Positions 1 to 48,156 of a DNA stretch of 52,766 nucleotides are shown in pieces; the stretch's first letter is position 1, and the number at the start of each line of letters is the position of its first letter. Source of the stretch: Verrucomicrobiia bacterium (GTDB lineage: Bacteria; Patescibacteriota; Saccharimonadia; Saccharimonadales; JAGQNK01); assembly GCA_035489575.1 (NCBI GenBank), contig DATHJY010000006.1, positions 1-52,766 of the forward strand. Reading direction: 5' to 3'. Under the pieces are notes generated by a model. It did no database searches and had not been told where the DNA came from. It saw only the letters and a program-made list of their open reading frames with translations. A program made the position numbers and the translations under genes.

Positions 1-460
1 TGGCAGCTTGCGGAACTTGTCCTGTCTTTGTTATTGATTTCAAACGAAATACAGGACTGCACACAGTCCTCGCTGCGCAGGTAGCAGAACCTTCCCTGTC
101 TAATCTGTTTACCCAAAGCCAGCCTGGGCCCACAGATGCAAGTCGGCCCGAGGTCTTACTCTTCAAATCCTACAATACCCGCCAGGAAAGCTCGGGCGGT
201 TTGTATTGTCTTTAGGCGGATCAGGCTTTAGAGAAACAGATTGGACGCCTGATAGCTTGATACCCGCGGTCCGAGGACTGTTTGAGCCCCAGCTTGCTGG
301 GGTGAGTTCCGAGATCGTGGCCTTTTCTGCAGCGCAGCAGGCTGAGCCTGCTGGCAGGCAGAAAAGAGACCATGTCAGGAGCCGGATAGCAAGCTGTCAG
401 GTGGTCAGTCTTGTTTCTATAACCGCCTGTCTGACAAAGACAGTACAAGTACTTATAGGA
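1..460. ncRNA. Large structured RNA candidate, copy R1, cut by the window start; homolog of 8615-9066
   Basis: Conserved blocks occur in the same order as in 8615-9066. These are tgcggaacttgYcctg (9-24 vs 8706-8721), cagtcctcg (64-72 vs 8759-8767), caggctttag (222-231 vs 8885-8894), caggagccgga (376-386 vs 8972-8982) and taaccgcctgt (420-430 vs 9016-9026). The cagtcctcg block pairs with cgaggact (272-279 vs 8935-8942). Only short ORFs with no recognisable protein features overlap it. The strand is undetermined. Confidence 0.5.
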
Positions 461-463
461 TAG

Positions 464-531
464 ACACTTTTCGTCCTTTTGGACTCGTCAGTTCTGCTTT
501 TGCCACTAGTGTGGCACATCAGAAGAAGTGT
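464..531 (-). ncRNA. Type III hammerhead ribozyme (HHR-1)
   Basis: The minus strand reads ACACTT C TTCTG [23-nt loop with GCCAC/GTGGC hairpin] CAGAA CTGACGA GTCC-AAAA-GGAC GAA AAGTGT. The parts are stem III 5' strand, C17 cleavage site, closed stem I, CUGANGA core, closed stem II, GAA core and stem III 3' strand. The core is identical to the copy at 48103-48156, and stem III differs by a compensatory change. Confidence 0.8.
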
Positions 532-659
532 GCGCGTTCGTGAAGTGGGAGTTGGTTGTCGGGGGTTGGAAGATCCAACTGCGACCACTTCACGGCCTGA
601 CTGTATGCGCGGGGGGGGTAGTCAGGTCTTGACCAGAGTCGATGTCTGCGGGGTGCAGA

Positions 660-1154
660 CTAGGCGGGGATGTCCGGGGTGGTGGCCATGGTGGCGGTCT
701 GGCTGCGGGCCTCGGCGTTGGCCTGCTGTACGGTGGGGGTCCACCCGATGGCCTCGAGGGTCATGCCGATGTAGAAGCCCAGCCACAGCACGCCCATGCG
801 GGTGAGGTCGAGCACGTAGTGCAGGTGACCGTTCTTGTCGATGACGTAGTTGGCGGCCGTGCACTCCATCACGATGGTGATGGCGAGCAGGAGGAGGCCG
901 GCGATGATCGCCGTGAGGAACAGCGTGCCCCAGCCCTTGTACCAGTCGGAGGCACGGTTGAGCTGGATGCCGTCCTTGATGGACAGCTTGGCCGCGACGA
1001 CGCCGCTGAAGGTCGTCACGATGGCGATGCTGGACAGGACGAGGTCGCTGGTGAACTGCGTCGGCAGGAAGACGCCGGCGACGATGGCCGCGACGAGCAG
1101 GACCGCGTGGAGGGGGGTGAAGATGGTGCGAAAGATCTGGAGGAAGTGGGGCAT
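660..1154 (-). CDS. GC-rich hypothetical integral membrane protein, about 4 TM helices; distant paralog of 48282..48845
   Basis: ORF 660..1262 was trimmed to the ATG at 1152-1154 (MPHFLQIF...). It has four hydrophobic segments and GC-rich third codon positions. It shares HYV..D and GFY(I/V)G motifs and the same topology with the 48282..48845 product. Confidence 0.7.
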   Translation of the reverse strand: MPHFLQIFRTIFTPLHAVLLVAAIVAGVFLPTQFTSDLVLSSIAIVTTFSGVVAAKLSIKDGIQLNRASDWYKGWGTLFLTAIIAGLLLLAITIVMECTAANYVIDKNGHLHYVLDLTRMGVLWLGFYIGMTLEAIGWTPTVQQANAEARSQTATMATTPDIPA

Positions 1155-1217
1155 GGATCCGCCTTTGACTCTGATTCCCTTGGAAGGGGCATGCGAGAGG
1201 ATTCTCACAATAAATAC

Positions 1218-1226
1218 ATTATAACA
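1218..1226 (-). promoter_or_regulatory. Extended -10 promoter element TGtTATAAT for the 660..1154 gene
   Basis: The minus strand reads TGTTATAAT in an AT-rich spacer about 60 nt upstream of the ATG. An identical 9-mer sits at the equivalent position upstream of the paralog (48918-48926). Confidence 0.45.
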
Positions 1227-1281
1227 CAAAGACTGATAAAAAGCAATACTTATGACAGTCAAGAAACAGAGGTGGGATGTA

Positions 1282-1310
1282 TTGACTTTCTGGTATTTTT
1301 ATAGTATAAT
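1282..1310 (+). promoter_or_regulatory. Near-consensus sigma70-type promoter (TTGACT, 17-nt spacer, TATAAT)
   Basis: TTGACT lies at 1282-1287 and TATAAT at 1305-1310, separated by a 17-nt spacer. The element is 45 nt upstream of the ATG at 1355, in an AT-rich spacer between two divergent GC-rich genes. Confidence 0.6.
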
Positions 1311-1354
1311 CCCGCTCAGTCTGTATCGGAAGAACTTTCCAAGATTGGAGTGGT

Positions 1355-1840
1355 ATGACCATCTCTACCCAACCACGTCGACGGCTGCGGCCCATCGTGC
1401 TCGGCGCCCTACTGATATGCCTCGTGGCAGTCACTGGCGCTTGTGTGACGACCGGACCGTCCGAAGAGGCCACCGCCAAGGAGGAAGCCCGACAGGTTGC
1501 TCAAGAGGCAGCCCAGAGCAAGCTCGAAGCCCGTGGCTTCACGGTCGTGGAGATCTATAGCTTCGGCTATGACGACGAGACCGACTTCTCTCGGGGCACC
1601 TTCGTGACTCGTATCGATGACTGCGGGGTCGATTTAGACTTCGAGATCACCGGTGGCGAGCAGCTGGACATCTTCGTGTGGCGCGAGCCGCTGGAGTTGG
1701 AGGACGGCCAGTTCTTCGGCTATGAGCGCGAAAGGCGGTTCTTCGACAGCGAAGACGAGTACCGTGACCTTCGTGGTCTTGCCTGCTCGTCGCCCACCAC
1801 TGCCGACGCCATCGACATCGTCATTCCCTCGAGTCCCTGA
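1355..1840 (+). CDS. GC-rich hypothetical lipoprotein or secreted protein
   Basis: The N-terminus is MTISTQPRRRLRPIVLGALLICLVAVTGAC. It has a basic n-region, a hydrophobic core and a lipobox-like TGAC. The mature part is acidic, and GC3 is high. Confidence 0.7.
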   Translation: MTISTQPRRRLRPIVLGALLICLVAVTGACVTTGPSEEATAKEEARQVAQEAAQSKLEARGFTVVEIYSFGYDDETDFSRGTFVTRIDDCGVDLDFEITGGEQLDIFVWREPLELEDGQFFGYERERRFFDSEDEYRDLRGLACSSPTTADAIDIVIPSSP

Positions 1841-1856
1841 CCGACACAGAACCACC

Positions 1857-1920
1857 GAGCTGTACGTTTCCTGTGCCTTCCGAAAGGAAGGATCAACACC
1901 AAACAGGAAACGTACAGCTC
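1857..1920 (+). terminator. Long perfect hairpin downstream of the 1355..1840 gene
   Basis: An 18-bp perfect stem forms between gagctgtacgtttcctgt (1857-1874) and acaggaaacgtacagctc (1903-1920). The loop contains a nested ccttcc/ggaagg hairpin. No clean U-tract follows directly. Confidence 0.5.
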
Positions 1921-2065
1921 ATCACTAAGCTTTTATGCTCTCCCCAGTTGAAGATTTTTTATAAAAATGTTATTATAAGCTATTCATAGACACCTGATAC
2001 TACCCGTTCTTTTATCGTGGAAGTGACCAGAATGAAACACAAGAAGCGTATATAATTCTAAGAGT

Positions 2066-3340
2066 ATGTTTGTAGATAAAGTACAAGTTTTGGTCAAGGC
2101 CGGCGACGGCGGCAATGGTGCCGTTAGTTTTCGTCATGAGAAATTTATAGACAGAGGCGGCCCAGATGGCGGCGATGGCGGCGATGGCGGCGACATTATC
2201 TTTCAGGCCAGCCAAAGCGAAAATACCCTGGCTACCTTTCGGTTCCAAAAGCGGCTGGTTGCCGCAGATGGCCAACCCGGGCTCAAGACTAAAAAGCACG
2301 GCAGAAACGGCCAAGATATGACGGTCAGGGTGCCAGTAGGTACCGTGGTGACAGATACGGAAGGCAAGGTGCTAGCCGACCTAGTCCAAGAAGGCTACGA
2401 AGTGATTATTGCCGAGGGCGGCAAGGGCGGTTTTGGCAATGCTCACTTTGTTAGCAGTACGCGCCAGGCCCCGCGCATGGCCGAAAAAGGCGAAAAGGGT
2501 GACGATAGAGAGCTGACCCTAGAACTCAAGATGATCGCCGATGTCGGCCTGGTGGGTTTGCCAAACGCCGGCAAATCTACGCTACTGAGCGTTATTAGCA
2601 ATGCCAGGCCAGAGATTGCTAATTACCCCTTTACTACCCTCCGACCCAACCTGGGTGTGGTAGATGTGCATGACACTGCCCTTTTGTTTGCCGATATTCC
2701 GGGTCTCATAGAGGGTGCCAGCCAAGGCAAGGGGCTAGGGGATGAGTTCTTGCGCCACATAGAGCGTACGCTGGTACTGGTGCACATGATAGATGCCTAC
2801 CAAGACGATGTGACTGTTGCATACAAAACAATCCAAGACGAGCTAAAGGCTTACAAAATAGATCTCACCAAGCGTCCCCAGATAGTCGTGCTCAACAAGG
2901 TAGAAGGGCTGGACGACGACATCGTGGCTTCACTGCTGGCTGATCTGAAGGCCGTAACACCCCGGGGGGCTAAGCTGCTGGCTATTTCGGCACAGACCAA
3001 AGCAGGCGTAAAAGAGTTGCTGCTGGCAGTCAAAGACAAAGTAGCCAAAGAGCACGCTAAACAAGCCAAAAAACAAGAGGTAACTGACACGGCCATGCCG
3101 ATCCTACGACTCAAAAATACCGAGGACGCCTGGAAGGTAGAGAAGCTTGCTGGCGGCGGCTTCCGGGTTTCTGGCCGCAAGATAGAGCGCTTTGCTATGC
3201 GCACTGATTTTGAAAACTTTCACGCCACTCAGCGTCTGCGGGACATTATGAAAAAAATGGGCATCATGCACGAGCTCAGACGCCAAGGCCTGGAGACCGG
3301 CCACAAAATATTTATTGGACAAGACAACCTAGAGTACTAA
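2066..3340 (+). CDS. obg: GTPase Obg/CgtA
   Basis: The N-terminal Obg fold is present (FVDKVQVLVKAGDGGNGAVSFRHEKF..GGPDGGDGGDGG). The G-domain has GLPNAGKST and DIPGLIEGA. A C-terminal OCT/TGS-like extension is also present. Confidence 0.95.
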   Translation: MFVDKVQVLVKAGDGGNGAVSFRHEKFIDRGGPDGGDGGDGGDIIFQASQSENTLATFRFQKRLVAADGQPGLKTKKHGRNGQDMTVRVPVGTVVTDTEGKVLADLVQEGYEVIIAEGGKGGFGNAHFVSSTRQAPRMAEKGEKGDDRELTLELKMIADVGLVGLPNAGKSTLLSVISNARPEIANYPFTTLRPNLGVVDVHDTALLFADIPGLIEGASQGKGLGDEFLRHIERTLVLVHMIDAYQDDVTVAYKTIQDELKAYKIDLTKRPQIVVLNKVEGLDDDIVASLLADLKAVTPRGAKLLAISAQTKAGVKELLLAVKDKVAKEHAKQAKKQEVTDTAMPILRLKNTEDAWKVEKLAGGGFRVSGRKIERFAMRTDFENFHATQRLRDIMKKMGIMHELRRQGLETGHKIFIGQDNLEY

Positions 3341-3424
3341 AAGGCTTCCTAATCTGTTGTGACAGAGTTCACGCTTATGCTAAAGTAGTGATAAGTATAA
3401 AAAACATCAGCGAAAGGTCAGGCT

Positions 3425-3949
3425 ATGACGGCCAAGGGCACCAAAAAAGTACCTGCAAAGTCATCGAATAAGGGTAAACAAGTGAAGAAGGCAAGCAAGT
3501 TACCGGGGTTTTTCAGTCTAAGTAATAAAAAATTCATACTCTTGACGGTTTTTATCGTTGGCTTTGTGGTTGCGGGGTCGTACTGGCTTTATCAGAGTAG
3601 TTCTGCCAGAGTCGCCAAAGACGACAGTACGGTACAGGGGTGCGAGGCTCTAGGTGTTGTGCTCAAGCAGGGCTCTAAAGGTTCATGCGTGAAAGCTGTA
3701 CAAAAAGTTCTAAATAGTGCTAAAACCAAATATGGCAGTACGGCGCATTGGGGCTATTTAACCGAGGATGGAGTCTATGGCCCTGCTACTGCTTTGACGG
3801 TGGCTGCATACCAGAAGCGTGTCAATAGTTCTCCCTTTTTTCCAGATAGACGGCCCATTGATGTAGATGGGTCGGTGGGACCACAGACATGGTTCTGGTT
3901 CCGGCAGATTACTTGTGTCGATGTCAATACGCCTGCCTGCGGGGATTAA
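3425..3949 (+). CDS. Membrane-anchored peptidoglycan-binding-domain protein
   Basis: It has a basic N-terminus, one TM segment and a PG_binding_1-like repeat (VKAVQKVLN...DGVYGPATALTVAAYQ...VDGSVGPQTW). It is a tandem paralog of 3996..4520. Confidence 0.7.
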   Translation: MTAKGTKKVPAKSSNKGKQVKKASKLPGFFSLSNKKFILLTVFIVGFVVAGSYWLYQSSSARVAKDDSTVQGCEALGVVLKQGSKGSCVKAVQKVLNSAKTKYGSTAHWGYLTEDGVYGPATALTVAAYQKRVNSSPFFPDRRPIDVDGSVGPQTWFWFRQITCVDVNTPACGD

Positions 3950-3995
3950 TGATGTCGCTCGTATAGCAATATGTAAATAACAAAGGGGACAGACA

Positions 3996-4520
3996 ATGGC
4001 AGCCCGTGGTACCAAAACAGCATCCGTAAGATCAACAGCGAAAGGCAAGCAAGTGAAGAAGGCAAGCAAGCTACCGGGTTTTCTCAGTTTGAAAAACCAA
4101 AAATTTGTTATGTTACTGGTTTTTGTGGTTGGCTTTGGAGCGGCTGGATCGTACTGGCTCTTCCAGTCTAGTTCTGCTGCACCCGCCAAGCCTGGCTTTG
4201 ATCTCACTAAAGCCTGGGGGTGTAAGGGTACGGATGCCACACTTCGGGCGGCGCCCGGTGGCAAGGTCGGTTCTGAGGGCTCGTGCGCCAAAGCTGCGCA
4301 GAGTATAGTGAATGGTGCGAATCGTCTGTATCCCAATAGTAACTGGTCTATAATAGGAGAAGACGGTAAGTACGGGGGGCAGACGGCCGCCGCTGTGAGT
4401 GCTTATCAGGGATACATGAGAATTTCGGCAGATGGCGTTGTTGGCCCAGTCACCTGGGAAAAAATGCTCGATACGTGTGAGTATTTGCGTCGGCGGGATA
4501 TAGCTCCTTCCGGATGCTAG
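3996..4520 (+). CDS. Membrane-anchored peptidoglycan-binding-domain protein, tandem paralog
   Basis: It has the same length and architecture as 3425..3949. The N-terminus AKGKQVKKASKLPGF is conserved, and the domain motif is DGKYGGQTAAAVSAYQ...ADGVVGPVTW. Confidence 0.7.
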   Translation: MAARGTKTASVRSTAKGKQVKKASKLPGFLSLKNQKFVMLLVFVVGFGAAGSYWLFQSSSAAPAKPGFDLTKAWGCKGTDATLRAAPGGKVGSEGSCAKAAQSIVNGANRLYPNSNWSIIGEDGKYGGQTAAAVSAYQGYMRISADGVVGPVTWEKMLDTCEYLRRRDIAPSGC

Positions 4521-4577
4521 CGTAGTGCCAGGGTCGCCTGGCGCCCTCCTGGGCTAGAAAGGTTTAAGATAAAATAC

Positions 4578-5501
4578 GTGGATCTAGCGAAAATCAAGCG
4601 TGTGGTGCTGTGGGTGGCCGTCTTGGTCGGGTTTTTGGGGTTTGGCCAAAGCGCCTCTGCTGCAACCGGGACAATATACCTAGCCCCGGCGATCACTAAT
4701 CTGACAAATGGTGCAGAAGTATCAATGGCTCTGCGTATCAATCCGGGTGTGGACGTAAACGGCGTACAGGCCGAGATTACCTATGATGGTTCAAAGCTTC
4801 AGCTGGTCTCTGCCAGCGACGCTGGCAGTGCCTTTCCGGAAATAGCAGAACAGAACGTAGCGGCCAATCCTATATCGCTCACCCGAACTACTTCGGGGAA
4901 TACGGTGAACGTAGACTCACTTATTATCACGCTTCGCTTCAAGGCAGTGGCGGCCAGTGGCAGTACCACGATATCTCTCACGGGCAACGCTGCCCAAGGC
5001 ACGACAGTTACCAGTCCTGGGGTGCAGGGAGCAACCGTTACTTTTAGCTCTTCTAGCTCGCCGGCCCCACCAAGCTCACCCACTCCACCTACACCGTCTG
5101 GCGGTAGTAGCACGAGGCAACAGAACCAAAGTACTCCGCAGCCAGAAGATGTACCAGATGTGCCCGGAGCGGTCAATCAGCTGCCCGGAGTTGACCAGCT
5201 AACAAACGACCCCCAGCCTCTAACAGTACCCGACCCACGGGTATCGCACCGTATCTGGTGGCTCTTTGGCGTACTTGGCGTCATCGTTGTGCTGGGCGGT
5301 GCTTACTGGCTGATTCGTCGCCACCGATCTACACCGGCAGAGCTGGCTGCCGACCATCCCATTGATCGTACCTGGGCTACTCCGCCTGTCCACACGGAAG
5401 AAGACGAAGAAACCGACGAGCTGCTGAGCCATATCCCCGGCACGGCCAAGCCAGACCCTGGCAGTATCATTACGCCCAAGGCACCCCCCGAAAAAAAGTA
5501 A
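4578..5501 (+). CDS. Cohesin-like domain surface protein with Pro/Ser/Thr linker and C-terminal TM anchor
   Basis: The start codon is GTG and a signal peptide is present. The segment GTIYLAPA..GAEVSMALRINPGVDVNGVQAEITYDGSKLQLVS resembles cohesin domains. It is followed by a PS-rich linker and a TM segment (WWLFGVLGVIVVLGGAYWLI). Confidence 0.55.
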   Translation: MDLAKIKRVVLWVAVLVGFLGFGQSASAATGTIYLAPAITNLTNGAEVSMALRINPGVDVNGVQAEITYDGSKLQLVSASDAGSAFPEIAEQNVAANPISLTRTTSGNTVNVDSLIITLRFKAVAASGSTTISLTGNAAQGTTVTSPGVQGATVTFSSSSSPAPPSSPTPPTPSGGSSTRQQNQSTPQPEDVPDVPGAVNQLPGVDQLTNDPQPLTVPDPRVSHRIWWLFGVLGVIVVLGGAYWLIRRHRSTPAELAADHPIDRTWATPPVHTEEDEETDELLSHIPGTAKPDPGSIITPKAPPEKK

Positions 5502-5508
5502 CCTGCTT

Positions 5509-5537
5509 TTGATTAAGATTGCTATTTATGGTATAAA
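5509..5537 (+). promoter_or_regulatory. Sigma70-type promoter (TTGATT, 17-nt spacer, TATAAA)
   Basis: TTGATT lies at 5509-5514 and TATAAA at 5532-5537 with a 17-nt spacer. It is about 100 nt upstream of the GTG at 5638. Confidence 0.5.
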
Positions 5538-5637
5538 TAATTTGTTATCTCTTGAGGTAGCCTGTGTGATTGCGCACAGAAATTGACAACAAGGAAGAAG
5601 CAAGCAACAGGCTAGACACCAAAAAAGGAGGGGTCTA

Positions 5638-5922
5638 GTGGAGCTTACGTGGAAGCAGACTATCGCGCTTGTATCGCTCGCCGGCATTGCCTATTACTGT
5701 CGGAGCCAGATACCGGGCATCGCCGCGTTTTGTTACGACTGGCGATGGGCGTTCGTGTTCGGTTTGGCCGGTTCGGTGATTGCACTGACTCTGGGTTTCA
5801 TTGTGTTGCTCATGGTCATGCCACCGGAAGGAGAACATACCAATACCGGACCTCCGAAAGGGTACGTCTACCGACCCCCGCCTGACGAAGACGAAGGCGA
5901 AGACATCTCCTGGATGCTCTGA
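5638..5922 (+). CDS. Small hypothetical membrane protein (94 aa) with moderately elevated GC
   Basis: The GTG start is preceded by AGGAGG. It has two to three hydrophobic segments and an acidic C-terminus. A structured 3' UTR and a hammerhead ribozyme follow on the same strand. Confidence 0.6.
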   Translation: MELTWKQTIALVSLAGIAYYCRSQIPGIAAFCYDWRWAFVFGLAGSVIALTLGFIVLLMVMPPEGEHTNTGPPKGYVYRPPPDEDEGEDISWML

Positions 5923-5947
5923 CACGAATGCGGGTATCAGAATCTGT

Positions 5948-6087
5948 TCAAGGTCTCTGTTGTTCTAAAATGCTCCTCCGGGTGCCCGTTCGCCCTGATC
6001 CACCAATCGCACCGCAGGTGTGCTTGGCGAACCAGTCCGAATTATCACTTGAAGTGGTACATTTTGCCAACAAAGACGAGACCTTGA
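5948..6087 (+). ncRNA. Stem-closed structured 3' UTR element (S/E motif, copy 1)
   Basis: A closing helix forms between tcaaggtctc (5948-5957) and gagaccttga (6078-6087). The internal 32-mer at 6027-6058 matches 34590-34621 at 25 of 32 positions by hand count. The blocks tccggGtg and cgccctg are shared. A variable hairpin (gcacc/gtgtgc here, cgtaac/gttacg in copy 2) occupies the same position. Confidence 0.5.
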
Positions 6088-6122
6088 GCAGGTTCTCTGC
6101 CCCCTTATTCTTCCTTGTCGTC

Positions 6123-6189
6123 TCTCGATTCCATAACTGATAGTTATGCTGATGAGTCCTCCCTGGTTTGTGCAGGACGAAAATCGAGA
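6123..6189 (+). ncRNA. Type III hammerhead ribozyme (HHR-2)
   Basis: The plus strand reads TCTCGATT(6123-6130) C(6131) CATAACT-GAT-AGTTATG(6132-6148) CTGATGA(6149-6155) GTCCT-[13-nt loop]-AGGAC(6156-6178) GAA(6179-6181) AATCGAGA(6182-6189). All invariant core positions are present. Stems I and II are loop-closed and stem III is open. Confidence 0.85.
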
Positions 6190-6206
6190 AGTGATAGACT
6201 GGTGTA

Positions 6207-7652
6207 ATGAGCTCTTCGACTTTTCTGTTCTATGACTTAGAGACTTCGGGTGTTAGCGCCCGGGATGCGCGCATTATGCAGTTTGCTGGCCAGCGGACAG
6301 ACCTGCAGCTCAATCCCGTGGGTGAGCCGTTTAACTATTTGGTTCGCCTGAGCGACGATGTCCTGCCCGAGCCGGACGCCATTCTGATTACGGGCATCAC
6401 GCCCCAAAAAACCTTGGCCGAGGGAATGCACGAAGCTGAATTCTTAAAGATATTCCATCACGATATTGCCGCTCCAGGCACTATCTTTGTGGGCTTTAAT
6501 ACCGTACGGTTCGACGATGAGTTTATGCGCTACACTATGTATCGCAACTTTTATGACCCTTACGAATGGCAGTGGCAAAATGGCCGGTCACGTTGGGATA
6601 TCTTGGACGTAGTACGCATGACACGTGCCCTGAGGCCGCAGGGAATACAGTGGCCGTTTGACCCCAAGGGCAAGCCAACCAACCGACTAGAGTTGCTGAC
6701 CAAGCTGAATAAGCTGGATCACAGTCATGCTCATGACGCGCTCAATGACGTCCTGGCTACCATTGCGGTTGCTAAGATGATCCGCGACAAACAGCCCAAG
6801 CTATTTGATTTCTTGCTACAGATGCGCGACAAAAAAGAGGTGGCCAAGCTGGTCCAGGGTGGGCAGCCGTTTGTGTACAGCTCTGGCAAATACCCCAGCG
6901 AGTTCGAAAAAACTACTGTGGTTGGCAAGCTGGCTGACCATCCCCAGGCCCAGTCGGCCCTTGTCTTTGACCTGCGACACGATCCAGAGCCTTTCCTAAA
7001 ACTCAATCCCAATGAATTGGCCGAGGCCATGCGCTGGAGTCGCGACGAAAATGCCATCCGACTGCCGGTCAAGACCATCAAATTCAACCGTTGTCCGGCC
7101 ATAGCGCCCCTGGGAGTGCTCGATGCCGATAGCCAACAGCGGCTCAAGTTGGATCCGGCTGTCTATATGGCCAACTTCAAAAAACTGCAGGCTGCCCAGG
7201 AGCGCCTGAGTACCGGCGTATTGCAGGCGTTGGAGTTACTCGACAAGAAGATGCAAGCTCGCTTGCTGCAGGATGAGGCCGACGTAGATACTCGTTTGTA
7301 CGACGGCTTTTTTGACACCCAGGACAAGCTAAAGATGAGCACCGTGCGGGCTGCCACTGCCGAAGAGCTGGGTGGCTTAGACCTGACCTTTAAAGACGAT
7401 CGCCTGGAGGCACTGCTGCCACTGTATAAAGCCCGGAATCACCCCAAGTCACTGACCGCCGAAGAGCGGGCACTATGGGAAACGTTTCGGGAACGCAAGC
7501 TACTGGGCGGTGGCGACCAAAGCCGGGCCGCCAAGTTCTTTAACCGGCTGAGCGAGTTGTCGCAGCGCACCGACCTGACTGGCGAGCAGAAATATCTGCT
7601 GGAAGAGCTGCAATTATACGGCCAAGGTATACTGCCCGTTACTGAGCAATAG
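6207..7652 (+). CDS. sbcB: Exodeoxyribonuclease I
   Basis: There is strong similarity to E. coli ExoI along the full length. Matching segments include FLFYDLETSG, ILITGITPQ, FNTVRFDDEF..YRNFYDPYEWQW..SRWDILDV and HDALNDVLATIAVAK. Confidence 0.9.
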   Translation: MSSSTFLFYDLETSGVSARDARIMQFAGQRTDLQLNPVGEPFNYLVRLSDDVLPEPDAILITGITPQKTLAEGMHEAEFLKIFHHDIAAPGTIFVGFNTVRFDDEFMRYTMYRNFYDPYEWQWQNGRSRWDILDVVRMTRALRPQGIQWPFDPKGKPTNRLELLTKLNKLDHSHAHDALNDVLATIAVAKMIRDKQPKLFDFLLQMRDKKEVAKLVQGGQPFVYSSGKYPSEFEKTTVVGKLADHPQAQSALVFDLRHDPEPFLKLNPNELAEAMRWSRDENAIRLPVKTIKFNRCPAIAPLGVLDADSQQRLKLDPAVYMANFKKLQAAQERLSTGVLQALELLDKKMQARLLQDEADVDTRLYDGFFDTQDKLKMSTVRAATAEELGGLDLTFKDDRLEALLPLYKARNHPKSLTAEERALWETFRERKLLGGGDQSRAAKFFNRLSELSQRTDLTGEQKYLLEELQLYGQGILPVTEQ

Positions 7653-7800
7653 GGCGTGATTTTCCTGACGATGCCCGACGCATTGCCCGAAAGCTCCACC
7701 ATGACAGGCCAACAAAGCCAAAAAGAGCGATTGCCGCGCCTACAAAAGTTACCTGAATTGTGGTGCCTGGAACCAAACCCAGGACAATGAACTCCATCAT
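7639..7800 (-). CDS. Small hypothetical membrane protein (53 aa)
   Basis: ORF 7639..7956 was trimmed to ATGATG at 7795-7800, which is preceded by GAGGAG. It has one hydrophobic helix and a basic tail. Its 3' end overlaps the sbcB end convergently by 14 nt. Confidence 0.4.
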   Translation of the reverse strand: MMEFIVLGLVPGTTIQVTFVGAAIALFGFVGLSWWSFRAMRRASSGKSRPIAQ

Positions 7801-8091
7801 AAAGAATACTCCTCGCAACTTACGCACCAGCCAGCCTGCCACCCGGCACAGCCGGCTGCCCCGCTGGCTTCTTGGCCTCCAGCACATTTTTCCCCTGTGG
7901 TACTCCCTCAACGTACTAAAGTACGTCTCGGTCCGTTCCTCGGGAAGAAAATGCACTGGAGGCTCAAGTGCGTAAGCTGTGCCTACGTTAGTTTTTTAAA
8001 AGTGTGCTCTTTCGGTTCCCCTCAAGGTTGCCCACGTATATGGAGAGTATTTTAAATAAAGTTGTATAAAAAGCAAGTATATTTTATAGAG

Positions 8092-8541
8092 CTAATGCTT
8101 GCGGCGGCCAAAGAGATTGGCCGCAACCCAGTTTTTTACCCGGGCCCATCTGTTGCGATTGCCAAAGAAGCAGAGCAGAGCAAACCCTATGCAAAAAATG
8201 CCGGCCGACACCATCCATATCGCACTGTGGCGGACTAGCAGCAAGACGCCGGCAATCAGTAAAACTACAGTCGCTGTGTCAAAAAACACCCGGCGGGGTG
8301 GCGTAAAGATAACATCGCTAATTTTGTCGGCGTATTCACGCAGCAGGTCAATGTAGCGCTGGGCCCAGTCATGGTTTATTGCCAATAAACTCAGGCCTAT
8401 CAAGAAAAGGGGTATGCCACCCGGACCTGGCAGCCAGCCAGTCAGCAGTGCGGCAAGCATGCATAAAACAGCCAAGGTATCAAAAACAACCAGTTGGGCG
8501 TAGTGCTTTATGCGCGGCATAGAGTCAGTATAACAGGGCAT
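8092..8541 (-). CDS. PGPGW-motif transmembrane protein
   Basis: It contains GWLPGPGGIPLFLIGLSLL, characteristic of the PGPGW membrane protein family, and multiple TM segments. An alternative start lies at 8520. Confidence 0.65.
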   Translation of the reverse strand: MPCYTDSMPRIKHYAQLVVFDTLAVLCMLAALLTGWLPGPGGIPLFLIGLSLLAINHDWAQRYIDLLREYADKISDVIFTPPRRVFFDTATVVLLIAGVLLLVRHSAIWMVSAGIFCIGFALLCFFGNRNRWARVKNWVAANLFGRRKH

Positions 8542-8614
8542 GTTTGGGTTGGGTGCAGCCGCATGCCATTCTCAAAAAGGTTTCGGTAACTGCCCTTAGG
8601 GCAGTTTGACTGAG

Positions 8615-9066
8615 ATACTTTCTTGTGTTGACAAGAAAGTATCCAAAGAAGCAACCGGCGAACTGGAAACAACAATTGAAAAACTGCGTCGAGCTATCCG
8701 GCTCCTGCGGAACTTGCCCTGCCTTATTATTGTCTTCAATGGAAAGCAGGGCTTCAAACAGTCCTCGGACCGCGGCTTACCTCGACGCAGTTTTTCATCG
8801 GTTTCCACTGAGCCGGCATAGGCCTCCATGGATACAAGCCCTAAAGGGCTTGTTTTTTAATAGCCGAAGGCTGCTGCTTGGAACCAGGCTTTAGCCAAAC
8901 TGATTAGACGGCGGTAACCCGGTTGCTCGCGCTCCGAGGACTAGCCTTTAGGCCGACTAAAAGGAGTCCCGCAGGAGCCGGACAGCCGGGTTACCGGCGG
9001 CTAGTCATGTTTGGGTAACCGCCTGTTGTTTCTTTGGTACCTTTCTTGTCAACACAAGAAAGGTAC
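8615..9066. ncRNA. Large structured RNA candidate, copy R2 (complete); homolog of 1-460
   Basis: It is bounded by two 22-nt segments that are exact reverse complements (ctttcttgtgttgacaagaaag inside 8615-8642 and ctttcttgtcaacacaagaaag inside 9037-9066). A 12-bp long-range helix forms between 8697-8708 and 8971-8982. A second helix forms between 8760-8767 and 8935-8942. The conserved blocks are in the same order as in 1-460. No convincing ORF is present. Confidence 0.55.
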
Positions 9067-9196
9067 TCGCAGGAGCTGCTGAAAGCAGCTGCGAAATGGG
9101 TTTAGTTTTGCCTTGTGGTTTTGAGCCGGGAAAAAGATGAGTTACACCGAAGCCGTAACAGGGAGCAGTTGGTCGCTACTGAGCTGGGAGTTATGT

Positions 9197-10012
9197 TTAG
9201 GCAGGTTTGTAGCTGCCGAGGGTTGTTATGGTGCAGCCTTGGGCGCGCAGAACGTCGAAGACGTCGTGTTCCAGCTGTTCGTTTAGCCCGGCCTCGAAAT
9301 CTATATAAAAAGCGTAGTGGCGCTTGTCATTGGCAATGGGATGGCTGTCTAGCTTAGACAGGTTGATACTGGCTTGGGCAAAAGCACCGAGGGCGTCATA
9401 GAGCGCACCGGGTTGATGGTTGGTCTCTAGGATGATGCTGGTTTTGGTAGCTTCCGGCAGATGACTCTTATCTTTGTTTAGTAGGAAAAAGCGCGTGTAG
9501 TTGTGCTCGTCGTCGTTAATTGGCCCTGCCAGAATGGTGCCGCCATGTAATTCTGCGGCGCGTTTGCTGGCAATAGCAGCCCAGGGCTCCCGGGGGTTGG
9601 CCACGACGTATTTGACGCTTGCGGCCGTATCATGGGTTTCTTCTCGGTGCGCTTGTGGCATGGTGGCGTCCAGCCACAGCTCGCACTGCGCAAGGGCCAT
9701 GATTTGGGACATGACTGTTTGAATTTCTGTTAATTCTTTTGGTCCCGCCGCTATAAGGTATTGGTTGACATGCAAATAGGTTTCGCCCTGTACCCAGACC
9801 GAATTGCGCGCTAGCAGGCGATATACCGCGTTGATCGAGCCGTGCAGACTGTTCTCTACGCCAACAATGCCTTTGTCTGCTCTTTCGCTTTCGACTGCCT
9901 CGAATACTTGCTGAAACGTATCGCAGTGCAGCAGTTCTATATCTGTTCCAAGCATTTTCTGCGCTGCTTCGTGATGGAACGAACCAGCAATGCCTTGAAT
10001 AGCGACTTTCAT
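9197..10012 (-). CDS. pheA: Prephenate dehydratase
   Basis: The PDT domain is present (MKVAIQGIAGSFHHEAA...TRFFLL). A C-terminal ACT domain follows (PGALYDALGAFAQASINLSKLDSHPI). Confidence 0.85.
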   Translation of the reverse strand: MKVAIQGIAGSFHHEAAQKMLGTDIELLHCDTFQQVFEAVESERADKGIVGVENSLHGSINAVYRLLARNSVWVQGETYLHVNQYLIAAGPKELTEIQTVMSQIMALAQCELWLDATMPQAHREETHDTAASVKYVVANPREPWAAIASKRAAELHGGTILAGPINDDEHNYTRFFLLNKDKSHLPEATKTSIILETNHQPGALYDALGAFAQASINLSKLDSHPIANDKRHYAFYIDFEAGLNEQLEHDVFDVLRAQGCTITTLGSYKPA

Positions 10013-10109: not shown

Positions 10110-10620
10110 ATGTCCACCCAGATGACCGCCTATGCCGATAGTCCGCCCCTGCAGCAATGGGCCACCGCCAACAGGCCCCGTAAGGGGCTGCTTTGGGAGC
10201 CTGGCTACTCGGAGCAGATCATGTTTGTGGCGGACCGGCTGGCCCCGCTCTTCCTGACCTACGAAGAGCTCAAGCTCACCCCCCGTGCGGGTGGTGGGCT
10301 CGCATACATCCAAGTCCGTCGGCCTGCCCGTGTACGGGATTGTGGTCCCCGGGAAGCTTGAGATGCGTCTGCGGTGCAACTTCTACGACTGGGTGATCAG
10401 CGTGAAGTCGGATGTTCCGATCGCCGACAACTTTCACAGCCTCTTTGGGCGTGACAAGCAGCAGTTGGATGTGTACAGCGAGGGCTTCTCGTCTGACTGG
10501 GTGTTCGGGCCATACGCTGCCAACAACCAGCGTTTTAGTCTGGAGCTGCCGGACAAGTACAGCCTGTATACCTTCTGCTACCTGTTGCGGGAGGGGCTGG
10601 GGCTGCGCGTCACAGACTGA
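10110..10620 (+). pseudogene. GC-rich hypothetical cytoplasmic protein gene, split by a frameshift in a C6 tract
   Basis: One reading frame runs from the ATG at 10110 to the stop at 10361 (MSTQMTAYADSPP...ELKLTP). The other frame stays open to 10620 (..VRVVGSHTSKSVGLPVYGIVVPGKLEM...GLRVTD). The switch point coincides with the cccccc run at 10279-10284. Removing one C gives a single ORF of about 170 aa. Confidence 0.6.
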
Positions 10621-15214: not shown

Positions 15215-16102
15215 GTGTCTTTTCTCGATCACTTCCTCGAGCCCGTCTACGACGACTCGACACCGCGTCGGCTGAATCCCCTTGGCATCCTCGTTCTGTG
15301 CTCGCTGGTCTTCGCTGTCATCACCGCCCTGGCGTTCGCCTTCGGCGTGCATGATGATCACGAAGCTGCCAGCAATCCCCCCGTCAGCACCACCACGGCT
15401 CCGGCCGTCGACCCCACCACGTCCACCACCGCTCCGACCACCACCTTTACCACCATCGTCACCGACGATGGTGGAGACGCCGAGGTCGACTACTGGCTGA
15501 TGAGGGGTACTGAGCTGCAGTCCATGACGGACGAGGACTGTCTGGCGCAGGACCATTTCGCCTATCTCGGCCTGACCGAGACTGACATGCCCCGTTCCTA
15601 CCCGGACGACTCGTTCTTCCACTTCGACTGTGGCACAGGCTACTGGGGCTGGTATTTCCAAGGCGCCGCCGGTGACACGTGGCAGGCCAGCCGGATCCTT
15701 CTGAGCGATCTGCCGCTGTGCGACGATCTGCCCGCTGGCGAACTGTGTCACGCGATGTTGTCGCTCGACAAGATCGGTGTGCCAACCAACCTGCATCACC
15801 CGTACTTCGAGGATGCCCTCACCCTGAGCGAGATCCACGCCGGTGACACCGTCTGCCTGCGAACCATGAGCCGCACCCCCGGCAAGCCCTCGCTGGGAGA
15901 GACCCTGACCATCGAGAGCGTCGGCACCAGTGCCTACGTTCCCCACGACTCCGACAAGGTCACGGCCTACCCGGCCTACCGCCCGAAGACGGACGACGGC
16001 GAGGACACCCTCTCCTCCTACCGTTCGGCGGAAGACGACGGCCTGGCCCCGTTCTCCAACGGTTTGTGGTCCACCGACTACGTGACGGCAGGCGACTGCT
16101 GA
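15215..16102 (+). CDS. GC-rich hypothetical membrane-anchored or secreted protein
   Basis: The GTG start is preceded by AGGAG. It has an N-terminal TM segment (LGILVLCSLVFAVITALAFAF), a Thr/Pro-rich linker and a Cys- and acid-rich globular region. GC3 is very high. Confidence 0.7.
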   Translation: MSFLDHFLEPVYDDSTPRRLNPLGILVLCSLVFAVITALAFAFGVHDDHEAASNPPVSTTTAPAVDPTTSTTAPTTTFTTIVTDDGGDAEVDYWLMRGTELQSMTDEDCLAQDHFAYLGLTETDMPRSYPDDSFFHFDCGTGYWGWYFQGAAGDTWQASRILLSDLPLCDDLPAGELCHAMLSLDKIGVPTNLHHPYFEDALTLSEIHAGDTVCLRTMSRTPGKPSLGETLTIESVGTSAYVPHDSDKVTAYPAYRPKTDDGEDTLSSYRSAEDDGLAPFSNGLWSTDYVTAGDC

Positions 16103-33581: not shown

Positions 33582-34478
33582 ATGAATGGGTCTTTGACAT
33601 CTCTGAGATCCCGCATCTTGGCACTGCTGCTGGCAGTGTTCATGACGGCGGGATTTGTCGTCGTTGCCGTTCCCGGCACGGCTTCGGCCGGCGACGGGCG
33701 TTCGGCGACCCCCGAGGGTGAGATCCGGGCGCAGTACATCCACAGCTTGGACCGCCAGCCGGACCAGGGTGGCTATGACAACTACATGTGGTTCGTCCGT
33801 GAGGACTGCCGCTGGGGCATCATGGACGCTTCGTTCAAGATCGCCAACAGCGCCGAGGCCCACCAGCGGTGGCACGACAACCCCCAGGACCTCGCCGGCA
33901 TGTTGTACGCCAGCCTGCTGGACCGCGCCCCTGACCCCGGTGGCCTGCAGACCTACACCGAGGCCATCCGCACCCGTGGGCTGGAGTGGGCCACGGCGTC
34001 CATGCTGGCTTCGCCCGAGTACGAGACCCGGCTGGGCAGCCTCTGTGCAGGCAGGCAGTCGTCCAGCGCAACCATGTTCACCTGGGAAGAGGCCCAGGCC
34101 TTCGTGGACAACGAGATCCTGCCGCGCGCCAAGGACCTGGCCATCGTGTGCGGCGCGACCCACGGGACTATGGTGTCCTTGGGGGCGCTGAAGGGCAGTG
34201 GCAACTTCGCCGTGTCGTTCGTGGGCATGTCCGCGTGGCTGGCCAACCAGTTCAACAGCATGTTCAGCATCGACCGCACCTGTGGCGCAGTCGCGCAGTA
34301 CCTGCTGGCAGCGCGCCGGATCAACCAGATCACCCTGCAGGGCGATCGCTACAACCCGGTGTTCATCCAGGCCGAGAGCGGCCAGCACCGCTGGTTGACC
34401 ACCGTGTTCGACGACTTCACGCTGCGGATCGGTCCCGACCCGACCCATTGGGATCCGTACTCCGGTTCCCATTTCTAG
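33582..34478 (+). CDS. GC-rich secreted protein with DUF4214-like repeats
   Basis: The signal peptide ends in TASA. Two repeats are of the DUF4214 type (SLDRQPDQGGYDNYMWFV and LLDRAPDPGGLQTYTEAI ... ASPEY). The RBS is GGAAGGAGG and GC3 is very high. Confidence 0.75.
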   Translation: MNGSLTSLRSRILALLLAVFMTAGFVVVAVPGTASAGDGRSATPEGEIRAQYIHSLDRQPDQGGYDNYMWFVREDCRWGIMDASFKIANSAEAHQRWHDNPQDLAGMLYASLLDRAPDPGGLQTYTEAIRTRGLEWATASMLASPEYETRLGSLCAGRQSSSATMFTWEEAQAFVDNEILPRAKDLAIVCGATHGTMVSLGALKGSGNFAVSFVGMSAWLANQFNSMFSIDRTCGAVAQYLLAARRINQITLQGDRYNPVFIQAESGQHRWLTTVFDDFTLRIGPDPTHWDPYSGSHF

Positions 34479-34501: not shown

Positions 34502-34657
34502 CCTATCCAAAATCTCCAGTTCCGTACCAAAACCACCCATTCCGGTGACAATCCGCCCTGGCCCGCCAGCCGTAACTACGGTTACGCCAGACGAACCAGA
34601 ACGAATTCTCCCTCGAAATGGATTGATTTTGGCTACGAAAGCGAGATCTTGGATAGG
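34502..34657 (+). ncRNA. Stem-closed structured 3' UTR element (S/E motif, copy 2)
   Basis: A closing helix forms between cctatccaaaatctc (34502-34516) and gagatcttggatagg (34643-34657) with one mismatch. Its internal blocks are homologous to 5948-6087, including the 32-mer 34590-34621. Confidence 0.5.
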
Positions 34658-48102: not shown

Positions 48103-48156
48103 AACGCTTTTCGTCCTTTTGGACTCGTCAGTTCTGACCATATCAGAAGAAGCGTT
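48103..48156 (-). ncRNA. Type III hammerhead ribozyme (HHR-3)
   Basis: The minus strand reads AACGCTT C TTCTGA-TATGG-TCAGAA CTGACGA GTCC-AAAA-GGAC GAA AAGCGTT. The element is a complete 54-nt minimal hammerhead. Confidence 0.85.

What the first reader, a model, noticed from the sequence alone, without database searches (positions are those of the whole stretch)
464..531. Type III hammerhead ribozyme between a GC-rich membrane-protein gene and the large structured element R1
The minus strand carries the same core as HHR-3 (CUGACGA, stem II GUCC-AAAA-GGAC, GAA). Stem III is ACACUU/AAGUGU and stem I is UUCUG/CAGAA, capped by a 23-nt loop containing its own hairpin.

Stem III differs from the 48103-48156 copy by a compensatory pair (ACACTT/AAGTGT here, AACGCTT/AAGCGTT there). 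This supports selection on the fold.

On the minus strand the order is gene 1154-660, structured 3' UTR 659-532, ribozyme, then R1 (460-1). If R1 is transcribed on the minus strand, the ribozyme would define its 5' end.
Basis: seen in the sequence. Interest (0 to 1): 0.75.

Follow-up and report, generated by a model that had tools for sequence, protein, structure and literature searches.

The report
Hammerhead ribozyme after an accessory gene
The stretch is a genuine type III hammerhead self-cutting RNA sitting in the tail of a small, fast-evolving membrane-protein gene of a soil Saccharibacteria genome; this is a known kind of ribozyme in a context already described for bacteria, and its link to the neighbouring large structured element R1 is possible but not the rule.

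Summary
Minus strand 531-464 carries a complete type III hammerhead with the predicted cut between C525 and U524. A descriptor finds 3 such motifs in the window and none in 200 shuffles.

The same 23-base core plus stem II occurs in 91 genome loci, nearly all Saccharibacteria or other Patescibacteria, and in 7 viral contigs. In 80 relatives stem III covaries strongly. Stem I does too, although sequences were pre-selected on it.

A model built from relatives scores this copy 54.6 bits. Rfam's curated thresholds miss the whole subfamily.

In an orthologous locus (L197) the ribozyme is 96% identical, against 80-84% for neighbouring genes.

Across loci the constant partner is an upstream same-strand small ORF, followed by a stable hairpin and then the ribozyme. 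These ORFs are non-conserved and often GC3-rich. What lies downstream varies.

Most likely the ribozyme cuts the 3' UTR of gene 1154-660. This would form the mRNA 3' end and detach whatever follows, here R1.

R1 belongs to a widespread structured family that is absent from Rfam. It lies on the same strand, but R2 and about 100 relatives lack a ribozyme. Only one other independent locus (L103) repeats the order gene, hammerhead, R.

I file it as a new member of a known kind, of moderate interest. Cleavage itself is untested.

The parts
464..531 (-). Type III hammerhead ribozyme. Predicted cut between C525 and U524. Stem III 531-527/468-464 plus U526-A469. Stem I 524-520/496-492, extended by an internal loop and the hairpin 516-501. 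Core CUGACGA 491-485. Stem II 484-473. GAA 472-470.
   Evidence: Sequence read. Descriptor versus shuffles. Fold. Family model 54.6 bits, E = 1.7e-16. 95.6% identity to ortholog L197.
532..659 (-). Structured 3' UTR of the upstream gene. It includes the hairpin GUGAAGUGG...CCACUUCAC, which ends 16 nt before the predicted cut.
   Evidence: 92% identical in L197 against 80% for the coding region. In the family, the 90 nt upstream of the ribozyme have a mean fold z of -2.9, and 68% of loci are below -2, against 11% of control stretches.
660..1154 (-). Cargo gene: a 164-aa predicted membrane protein with about four hydrophobic helices, GC3 0.98, lineage-restricted.
   Evidence: ORF. Codon-position GC. 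No Pfam or PHROG family. Only one distant homolog in 1.84 billion representatives. Ortholog in L197 with 64% amino-acid identity.
1..460 (-). R1, a large structured element cut off by the contig end. It is a member of the R family, with core CGAGGACUGU...CAAGUUCCGCA at 72-9. It lies directly 3' of the ribozyme on the same strand.
   Evidence: Paralog R2. Fold z = -7.4 for 540-1, a stretch that also contains the hammerhead. Family of 105 metagenome loci. Strand. Ortholog in L197.
48103..48156 (-). Second hammerhead of the same subfamily. It lies 3' of the GC3-rich gene 48845-48282 and 5' of gene 48071-47655.
   Evidence: 62.8 bits; this sequence was in the model's training set.
6123..6189 (+). 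Third type III hammerhead, with core CUGAUGA and a longer stem II. It lies 3' of the small membrane ORF 5638-5922 and 18 nt before the sbcB start at 6207.
   Evidence: 41.4 bits.
8585..9089 (-). R2, a complete paralog of R1 between pheA and a PGPGW-domain gene. It has no ribozyme upstream.
   Evidence: (z = -13.3).

Best explanation
Positions 531-464 (minus strand) encode a functional type III hammerhead ribozyme that is part of the 3' UTR of the accessory gene 1154-660.

Inferred mechanism:
- The gene is transcribed from its own promoter, through the structured 3' UTR and the ribozyme, into R1.
- The ribozyme folds and cuts itself between C525 and U524.
- The mRNA is left ending in a 2',3'-cyclic phosphate 16 nt after a stable hairpin, which forms and protects its 3' end.
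- Everything downstream is released with a 5'-OH. Here that is the 61-nt ribozyme body followed by R1.

The unit gene + hairpin + hammerhead is a recurring accessory-gene format in Saccharibacteria and other Patescibacteria and in their presumed phages.

Shown: the motif, its conservation and covariation, its constant pairing with an upstream ORF and hairpin, and its absence from relatives that lack the insertion.

Inferred: transcription, cleavage, and the effect on mRNA stability or insulation.
For: The core and all three stems are present. There are 3 sites in the window against 0 in 200 shuffles.

The exact core plus stem II occurs in 91 genome loci, nearly all Saccharibacteria or other Patescibacteria MAGs. 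87 of 96 copies parse as type III.

In 80 distinct relatives 92.8% of cells are paired. Stems I and III each show six pairs with changes on both sides, and slid controls give 31-44% paired. Stem III was not used to select the sequences.

The family model scores this copy, which was not in the training set, at 54.6 bits.

Identity to ortholog L197:
- ribozyme 95.6%
- 3' UTR 92%
- cargo coding region 80%
- obg 83.5%

The only differences in the ribozyme are a 2-nt loop indel and an A-U to G.U change.

The nearest upstream ORF is on the same strand in 59 of 77 loci, at a median of 86 nt. Downstream the split is 31 same, 30 opposite and 16 none.

The upstream 90 nt are strongly structured.

The upstream ORFs are unrelated to each other, with 77 singletons of 85. 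They mostly lack Pfam domains. They are GC3-enriched by a median of +0.14, and hold the highest GC3 in the locus in 39 of 63 cases, p = 2e-8.

The same family is clustered between small genes in viral contigs. This matches the published picture of bacterial hammerheads flanking small non-conserved ORFs (PMC3088659, PMC6155905).

Relatives L205 and the P0012 contig lack the whole block between LysM/CHAP and obg. L205, the one with DNA available, has no hammerhead.
Against: There is no RNA evidence. Only three soil DNA runs hold the region, and no RNA run was found for a related locus.

Self-cleavage was not assayed.

Rfam's own hammerhead models do not reach their gathering scores. The best is Hammerhead_1 at 18.6 bits against 34.

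Stem I here departs from the family norm. It is 5 bp plus an inserted hairpin, in place of 7 bp capped by the conserved UGYGYR loop. The usual loop-loop contact may therefore be altered.

The promoter of the cargo gene was read by eye (TGTTATAAT at about 1226-1218). The promoter scan did not report it.

The claimed benefit, 3' end formation or insulation, is an inference from position only.
Confidence: 0.68

Rival explanations
1. The ribozyme's main job is to make the 5' end of R1. On this view gene + hammerhead + R is one module in which the structured RNA is released from the mRNA by self-cleavage.
For: R1 starts 4 nt after the ribozyme, on the same strand, with no terminator-like or promoter-like site between them.

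The adjacency is kept in L197.

A non-orthologous locus, L103 (with its near-identical copy L110), has the same order: a GC-rich ORF unrelated to this one, a 3' UTR, a type III hammerhead, an R element and then topA. Its hammerhead shares the unusual 5-bp stem I and a loop ending in AAAAG.

By my rough estimate, two independent adjacencies of two rare elements are unlikely by chance, on the order of 1e-3. This is an estimate, not a tool result.
Against: None of the 91 genome loci with the same ribozyme core has an R core nearby.

R2 in this window has no hammerhead or any other Rfam ribozyme upstream.

Among the 100 R loci searched with the family model, only L103 and L110 hit.

The two other hammerheads in this window precede ordinary protein genes.
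Confidence: 0.17
2. The ribozyme acts for the downstream side in general. It would be a natural insulator that gives the next gene or RNA a fixed 5'-OH leader, independent of what is transcribed upstream. It would work like the synthetic RiboJ insulator.
For: Two of the three window copies end 18-45 nt before the start codon of a same-strand gene.

In viral contigs the next ORF starts right after the ribozyme.
Against: Downstream orientation is random in the genome loci, at 31 same, 30 opposite and 16 none.

Several copies are followed at once by a terminator-like hairpin, as read in the sequences printed.
Confidence: 0.1
3. It is an inactive relic or a DNA-level repeat. For example, it could be part of a mobile-element end or a recombination site, conserved for reasons other than RNA catalysis.
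For: Stem I is atypical for the family.

The block is a lineage-specific insertion.

The family is shared with viral contigs.

Rfam scores are low.
Against: All catalytic core positions are intact.

It is the best-conserved segment of the region in L197, and its one stem change keeps the pair only at the RNA level.

Family-wide covariation with an invariant core is the signature of a folded RNA.

Loop-1 insertions also occur in other copies, with the loop ending in AAA (L075) or AAAAGG (L053).
Confidence: 0.05

Closest known systems
Hammerhead ribozyme, type III topology (Rfam RF00008, clan CL00010)
   Same: The core is CUGANGA...GAAA, with the A15.1-U16.1 pair, C17 at the cut site and the G10.1-C11.1 pair. 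Three helices surround the core and stem III is open. Stems I and III covary.
   Different: It is not captured by Rfam's curated thresholds. The window copy and 18 canonical relatives give no hit at gathering score. Stem II is fixed as GUCC-AAAA-GGAC. This copy has a 5-bp stem I extended by an inserted hairpin, where the subfamily usually has 7 bp with a UGYGYR loop.
Bacterial and phage hammerheads that flank small non-conserved ORFs (Perreault et al. 2011, PMC3088659; de la Pena et al. 2017, PMC6155905)
   Same: The ribozyme lies next to small ORFs of unknown function. The same family is clustered 2-4 per few kb in viral contigs. The proposed role, cutting long transcripts into gene-length RNAs, is the same.
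   Different: Here single copies are scattered among housekeeping genes of a Saccharibacteria chromosome, not in a prophage. The partner ORFs are GC3-rich relative to their genome. A stable hairpin regularly precedes the ribozyme.
Synthetic ribozyme insulators (RiboJ) and 3' UTR hammerheads of mammalian Clec2 genes (from my own knowledge, not checked here)
   Same: They work alike. Cis-cleavage in a UTR uncouples a coding region from its flanking RNA and changes mRNA fate.
   Different: There is no homology or shared origin. The effect on expression is untested here.

Membership tests
Hammerhead ribozyme (type III) | Conserved catalytic core: C3 U4 G5 A6 N7 G8 A9 and G12 A13 A14 | tested here: met
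   CUGACGA at 491-485 and GAA at 472-470. The core is invariant in 80 relatives.
Hammerhead ribozyme (type III) | A15.1-U16.1 pair, and a non-G nucleotide 17 at the cut site | tested here: met
   A469 pairs with U526, and C525 is position 17. The pair is U-A in 80 of 80 relatives.
Hammerhead ribozyme (type III) | Three helices around the core, with stems I and II closed by loops and stem III open | tested here: met
   The minimum-free-energy and centroid folds both give this junction. The family model aligns all 55 positions.
Hammerhead ribozyme (type III) | Helices supported by compensatory changes among homologs | tested here: met
   Stems I and III each have six pairs with changes on both sides. 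92.8% of cells are paired, against 31-44% when partners are slid. The stem I sequences were pre-selected for pairing and the stem III sequences were not. Stem II never varies, because the search pattern fixed it.
Hammerhead ribozyme (type III) | Score at or above the Rfam gathering threshold | tested here: not met
   No hit at gathering score. The best match in the clan is Hammerhead_1 at 18.6 bits against 34, E = 0.31. 18 canonical relatives also fail, so this reflects the model's seed rather than this copy.
Hammerhead ribozyme (type III) | Site-specific self-cleavage giving 2',3'-cyclic phosphate and 5'-OH ends | not testable with these tools
   No RNA runs hold this or a related locus. An in vitro assay is needed.
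Hammerhead ribozyme (type III) | Tertiary contact between stem I and stem II loops, needed for fast cleavage | tested here: inconclusive
   The subfamily keeps loop 1 as UGYGYR and loop 2 as AAAA. This copy keeps AUGUGC but then carries a 6-bp hairpin and AAAG. Loop-1 insertions also occur in L053, L075 and L103.
Prophage-borne hammerhead clusters | Location inside a prophage or near an integrase, with several ribozymes close together | tested here: not met
   The neighbours are obg, sbcB, uvrA, pheA and ABC transporters. The cargo genes have no PHROG hits. The three copies are 5.6 kb and 42 kb apart.

The most novel reading that the evidence does not exclude
The hammerhead and R form a functional pair in a subset of Patescibacteria. 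An accessory mRNA carries at its 3' end a large structured RNA of a widespread family not yet catalogued, the R family. The hammerhead releases it as a separate 5'-OH RNA.

The R core is CGAGGACUGU, then a variable hairpin, then CAAGUUCCGCAG, closed by a long helix. The family has 105 metagenome loci and none in Rfam 15.

Linked to this, the cargo genes keep third codon positions locked at G/C (0.96-0.98) while their proteins diverge fast. This would point to selection on the RNA itself rather than to recent transfer from a high-GC donor.
Probability: 0.15. Interest if true: 0.7.

Novelty: new member of a known kind. Interest (0 to 1): 0.4.

Why it matters
The biological role of bacterial hammerheads is still open. 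This subfamily offers a clean case.

There are about a hundred copies with a fixed core. Each sits a median of 86 nt after a small accessory gene and right after a stable hairpin. They occur in genomes (Saccharibacteria and other Patescibacteria) where transcript processing is hardly studied.

That regular format makes the idea of ribozyme-made mRNA 3' ends directly testable.

It also shows that current Rfam thresholds miss a whole lineage-specific set of hammerheads.

The repeated order gene, hammerhead, R points to a possible processing route for a widespread structured element that has not been annotated.

Tried and rejected
- **Rfam.** I ran it at gathering score on the whole window, and with E-value thresholds on 1-1400 and 8450-9300. 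There were no curated hits. I did not treat this as evidence against the motif, because canonical relatives also fail.
- **tRNA or tmRNA.** None is present in the window.
- **Phage origin of the window.** There is no megablast match to phage records, and the gene content is chromosomal.
- **R1 as a known large RNA** (GOLLD, ROOL, HEARO, OLE, raiA, RNase P, 6S and others). There are no Rfam hits at E <= 10 in R1 and R2, or at E <= 1 in ten relatives. A literature search for the core sequences returned only primers.
- **R near the 91 hammerhead loci.** Searches with nhmmer and a fuzzy motif found none beyond chance.
- **A constant protein neighbour of R.** None was found.
- **RNA-seq evidence.** Only DNA runs hold the window, and none holds the SPRUCE locus L043. 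Laying the DNA contigs showed only that R1 is multicopy.
- **Cargo genes as one protein family.** Rejected: 77 of 85 are singletons.
- **A conserved element 5' of the cargo genes.** Only a leader hairpin in 5 loci was found, and none in this window.
- **Pattern searches** failed on syntax and were redone in Python.
- **Literature on hammerheads in Saccharibacteria or Patescibacteria.** None was found.

Full report
**1. What is in the sequence**

On the minus strand, 531-464 reads as follows:

ACACU-U-C | UUCUG-[23-nt loop]-CAGAA-CUGACGA-GUCC-AAAA-GGAC-GAA-A-AGUGU

- This is a complete type III hammerhead.
- Stem III is 531-527 with 468-464, plus the U526-A469 pair.
- C525 is nucleotide 17, so the predicted cut lies between 525 and 524.
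- Stem I is 524-520 with 496-492.
- The stem I loop contains the hairpin UGCCAC-ACUA-GUGGCA.
- The A-U to G-C difference in stem III relative to the copy at 48156-48103 is also right.
- The minimum-free-energy and centroid folds of 533-462 are exactly this junction, with z = -2.95.
- A strict type III descriptor finds three sites in the window: this one, 48156-48103 (-) and 6123-6189 (+). It finds none in 200 dinucleotide shuffles.

**2. Is it a real, selected ribozyme?**

*Rfam.* At curated thresholds Rfam reports nothing in the window. At relaxed thresholds only a sub-threshold Hammerhead_1 match appears, at 18.6 bits against 34.

*Relatives.*
- The exact 23-base core plus stem II was scanned against one genome per species. 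It occurs in 91 loci, nearly all Saccharibacteria or other Patescibacteria MAGs.
- It also occurs in 7 IMG/VR contigs.
- 87 of 96 copies parse as type III.

*Covariation.* The test used a gap-free alignment of 80 distinct relatives.
- The core never varies.
- 92.8% of cells pair.
- Stems I and III each have six pairs with changes on both sides. All four Watson-Crick types are seen.
- Sliding the partners drops pairing to 31-44%.
- Sequences were selected on stem I pairing, so stem III is the unbiased test. Stem II was fixed by the search pattern.

*Family model.* A covariance model built from that alignment scores the finding's copy at 54.6 bits, E = 1.7e-16. That copy was not in the training set. 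The third copy scores 41.4 bits.

*Why Rfam fails.* Eighteen canonical relatives also fail Rfam's thresholds. The Rfam result therefore reflects the seed alignments and not this copy.

**3. Orthologous locus**

The closest Obg relatives are labelled Saccharimonadales or Saccharibacteria. A contig whose Obg is 92% identical (L197) carries the same arrangement.

Nucleotide identity to the window:

| Segment | Identity |
|---|---|
| Ribozyme | 95.6% |
| 3' UTR | 92% |
| R1 | 81-84% |
| Cargo coding region | 80% |
| obg | 83.5% |

- The ribozyme differs only by a 2-nt indel in the loop of the inserted hairpin and by A531 to G.
- That change turns the outer stem III pair A-U into G.U. The pair is kept only if the minus strand is the RNA.

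**4. What it goes with**

In 77 loci with enough flank:
- The nearest upstream ORF is on the ribozyme's strand in 59, on the opposite strand in 13, and absent in 5. The median distance from stop codon to ribozyme is 86 nt.
- Downstream the split is 31 same strand, 30 opposite and 16 none.

The upstream ORFs:
- They are small and unrelated to one another, with 77 singletons of 85.
- Nine of ten tested have no Pfam domain.
- Their GC3 exceeds the median of the other ORFs in the locus by a median of +0.14. It is the highest in the locus in 39 of 63 cases, Wilcoxon p = 2e-8.

The flanks:
- The 90 nt before the ribozyme are strongly structured. The mean z is -2.9 and 68% of loci are below -2, against 11% for a control stretch inside the ORF.
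- Several copies are followed at once by a terminator-like hairpin (sequences printed).

The recurring unit is therefore small ORF, stable hairpin, then hammerhead. All three window copies fit it.

This matches what is already published. Bacterial hammerheads flank small non-conserved ORFs, are often linked to phages, and have been proposed to cut long transcripts into gene-length RNAs (PMC3088659 and PMC6155905). In viral contigs the same subfamily is clustered 2-4 per few kb between small same-strand genes.

**5. The block is an insertion**

In more distant relatives (Obg 71-72% identical), the LysM/CHAP gene is followed at once by obg.
- The gaps are 83 nt in L205 and 180 nt in the P0012 contig.
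- In L205, obg is followed by sbcB after 527 nt, and pheA by its neighbour after 25 nt.
- L205 has no hammerhead.

The following are therefore lineage-specific additions to a conserved backbone:
- R1 + ribozyme + cargo gene + ORF 1355-1840
- the block holding the second cassette
- R2

The window itself is chromosomal. It carries obg, sbcB, uvrA, pheA, transporters and aminopeptidase P. The cargo genes have no phage-family matches.

**6. The cargo gene**

- ORF 1154-660 encodes a 164-aa protein with about four hydrophobic helices.
- Its GC by codon position is 0.57 / 0.43 / 0.98.
- Its L197 ortholog is 64% identical in protein, and its GC3 is 0.96.
- Substitutions by codon position are 45, 22 and 21. 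Third positions change least while the protein changes fast.
- The gene caller chose the opposite strand in L197.
- The word-indexed search found only the protein itself, probably because that call hid the L197 ortholog. The exhaustive search found one 36%-identical relative among 1.84 billion representatives.
- A second orthologous pair, L016 and L089, has a cassette only 79-84% identical between flanks that are 91-97% identical.

These are fast-evolving accessory genes.

**7. R1**

*Paralog and fold.* R1 (460-1) has a paralog, R2, at about 9089-8585 on the same strand. R2 folds with z = -13.3.

*Shared core.* Both carry CGAGGACUGU, a variable hairpin and CAAGUUCCGCA, closed by a long helix.

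*Family size and structure.*
- That pattern occurs in 105 metagenome loci and in no viral contig.
- In 65 of 86 distinct variants the segment between the two blocks forms at least 6 consecutive pairs, although 61 different 10-mers occupy it. For shuffled sequences the figure is 4 of 86.

*Strand.* The strand written above folds better than its complement in 64 of 88 cases, p = 1e-7. In the window that is the minus strand, the same as the ribozyme.

*Identity.* No Rfam family matches R1, R2 or ten relatives.

*Context.*
- Most relatives lie in intergenic regions of high-GC soil bacteria with varied neighbours.
- Contig depth over 1-400 is two to three times the rest, so the element is multicopy.
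- L197 shows that R1 ends against the convergent LysM/CHAP gene.

**8. Is the ribozyme there for R1?**

*For:*
- No terminator-like or promoter-like site lies between them.
- The adjacency is kept in L197.
- One non-orthologous locus, L103 (with its near-identical copy L110), repeats the order: an unrelated GC-rich ORF, a 3' UTR, a type III hammerhead at 43.1 bits, R, and then topA.
- The L103 hammerhead also has a 5-bp stem I and a loop ending in AAAAG, as here.

*Against:*
- None of the 91 genome loci with the same core has an R core nearby.
- R2 has no ribozyme.
- Of the 100 R loci searched with the family model, no others have one.

I conclude that the ribozyme belongs to the upstream gene's 3' UTR. 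Releasing R1 with a 5'-OH at U524 is a local consequence. A functional pairing in a subset of lineages remains possible.

**9. Mechanism and confidence**

*Shown:* the motif, selection on its fold, its constant partner, and its insertion status.

*Inferred:*
- Transcription from a promoter that I read by eye near 1246-1218. The scan did not report it.
- Self-cleavage at C525/U524.
- A protected mRNA 3' end 16 nt after the hairpin GUGAAGUGG...CCACUUCAC.
- Uncoupling from downstream RNA.

No RNA data exist for this or a related locus.

**10. Verdict**

This is a genuine hammerhead, a new member of a known kind, in a context already described in outline for bacteria. Three points go beyond the textbook:
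- a Patescibacteria-wide subfamily that Rfam's thresholds miss;
- the regular hairpin-then-ribozyme format after GC3-rich accessory genes;
- two independent cases where the unannotated R element follows.

Noticed in passing
window 1-460 (-) and 8585-9089 (-); loci L092-L196: R1 and R2 belong to a widespread structured element. Its invariant blocks, CGAGGACUGU and CAAGUUCCGCAG, flank a covarying hairpin and are closed by a long helix. It occurs in 105 metagenome loci, no viral contigs and no Rfam 15 family. In some loci two copies lie in inverted orientation a few hundred bases apart (L092, L130, L154, L167, L187). The window copies are expanded versions in which an upstream ACAGUCCUCG can pair with the first block.
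   Followed up: partly
window 660-1154 (-) and L197 7104-7586 (-): The cargo gene keeps GC3 at 0.96-0.98 in two species although the proteins are only 64% identical. Substitutions by codon position are 45, 22 and 21, so third positions change least. Gene callers picked the antisense ORF in L197, which hides such genes from protein databases.
   Followed up: partly
L205 4868-11004 and the P0012 contig, compared with window 1-10012: Relatives with 71-72% identical Obg have LysM/CHAP, obg, sbcB and pheA packed closely. They lack R1, both nearby hammerhead cassettes, R2 and the peptidoglycan-binding genes 3425-4520. All of these are lineage-specific insertions into intergenic gaps.
   Followed up: partly
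L199, L201, L202, L203 (IMG/VR contigs): The same hammerhead subfamily occurs 2-4 times within 2-3 kb between small same-strand genes in viral contigs. This suggests exchange between phages and the chromosomal cassettes.
   Followed up: partly
L015, L016, L028, L031, L089 (5' UTRs of cassette genes): A conserved leader hairpin, YUCGUUGAGR...YCNRARGUAC, lies directly after a -10 box in five hammerhead-linked cassettes. It is not present in the window.
   Followed up: no
window 6028-6086 (+) and 34592-34651 (+): There is weak similarity (75% over 60 nt) between the 3' UTR of the second cassette and the 3' UTR of another GC3-rich gene (33582-34478). That gene ends in a terminator-like hairpin and has no hammerhead.
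   Followed up: no
window 15215-16102 (+), 33582-34478 (+), 10258-10620: Further GC3-rich ORFs (GC3 0.81-0.87) in a 52% GC genome have no hammerhead. GC3-rich accessory genes are therefore not all ribozyme-linked.
   Followed up: no
L071 (Mycobacterium asiaticum contig NZ_LZLS01000065.1) 4505-4527: One exact-core hammerhead lies in a contig filed under an actinobacterial isolate, which belongs to a group that includes known Saccharibacteria hosts. Whether this reflects transfer, a phage or contamination was not examined.
   Followed up: no
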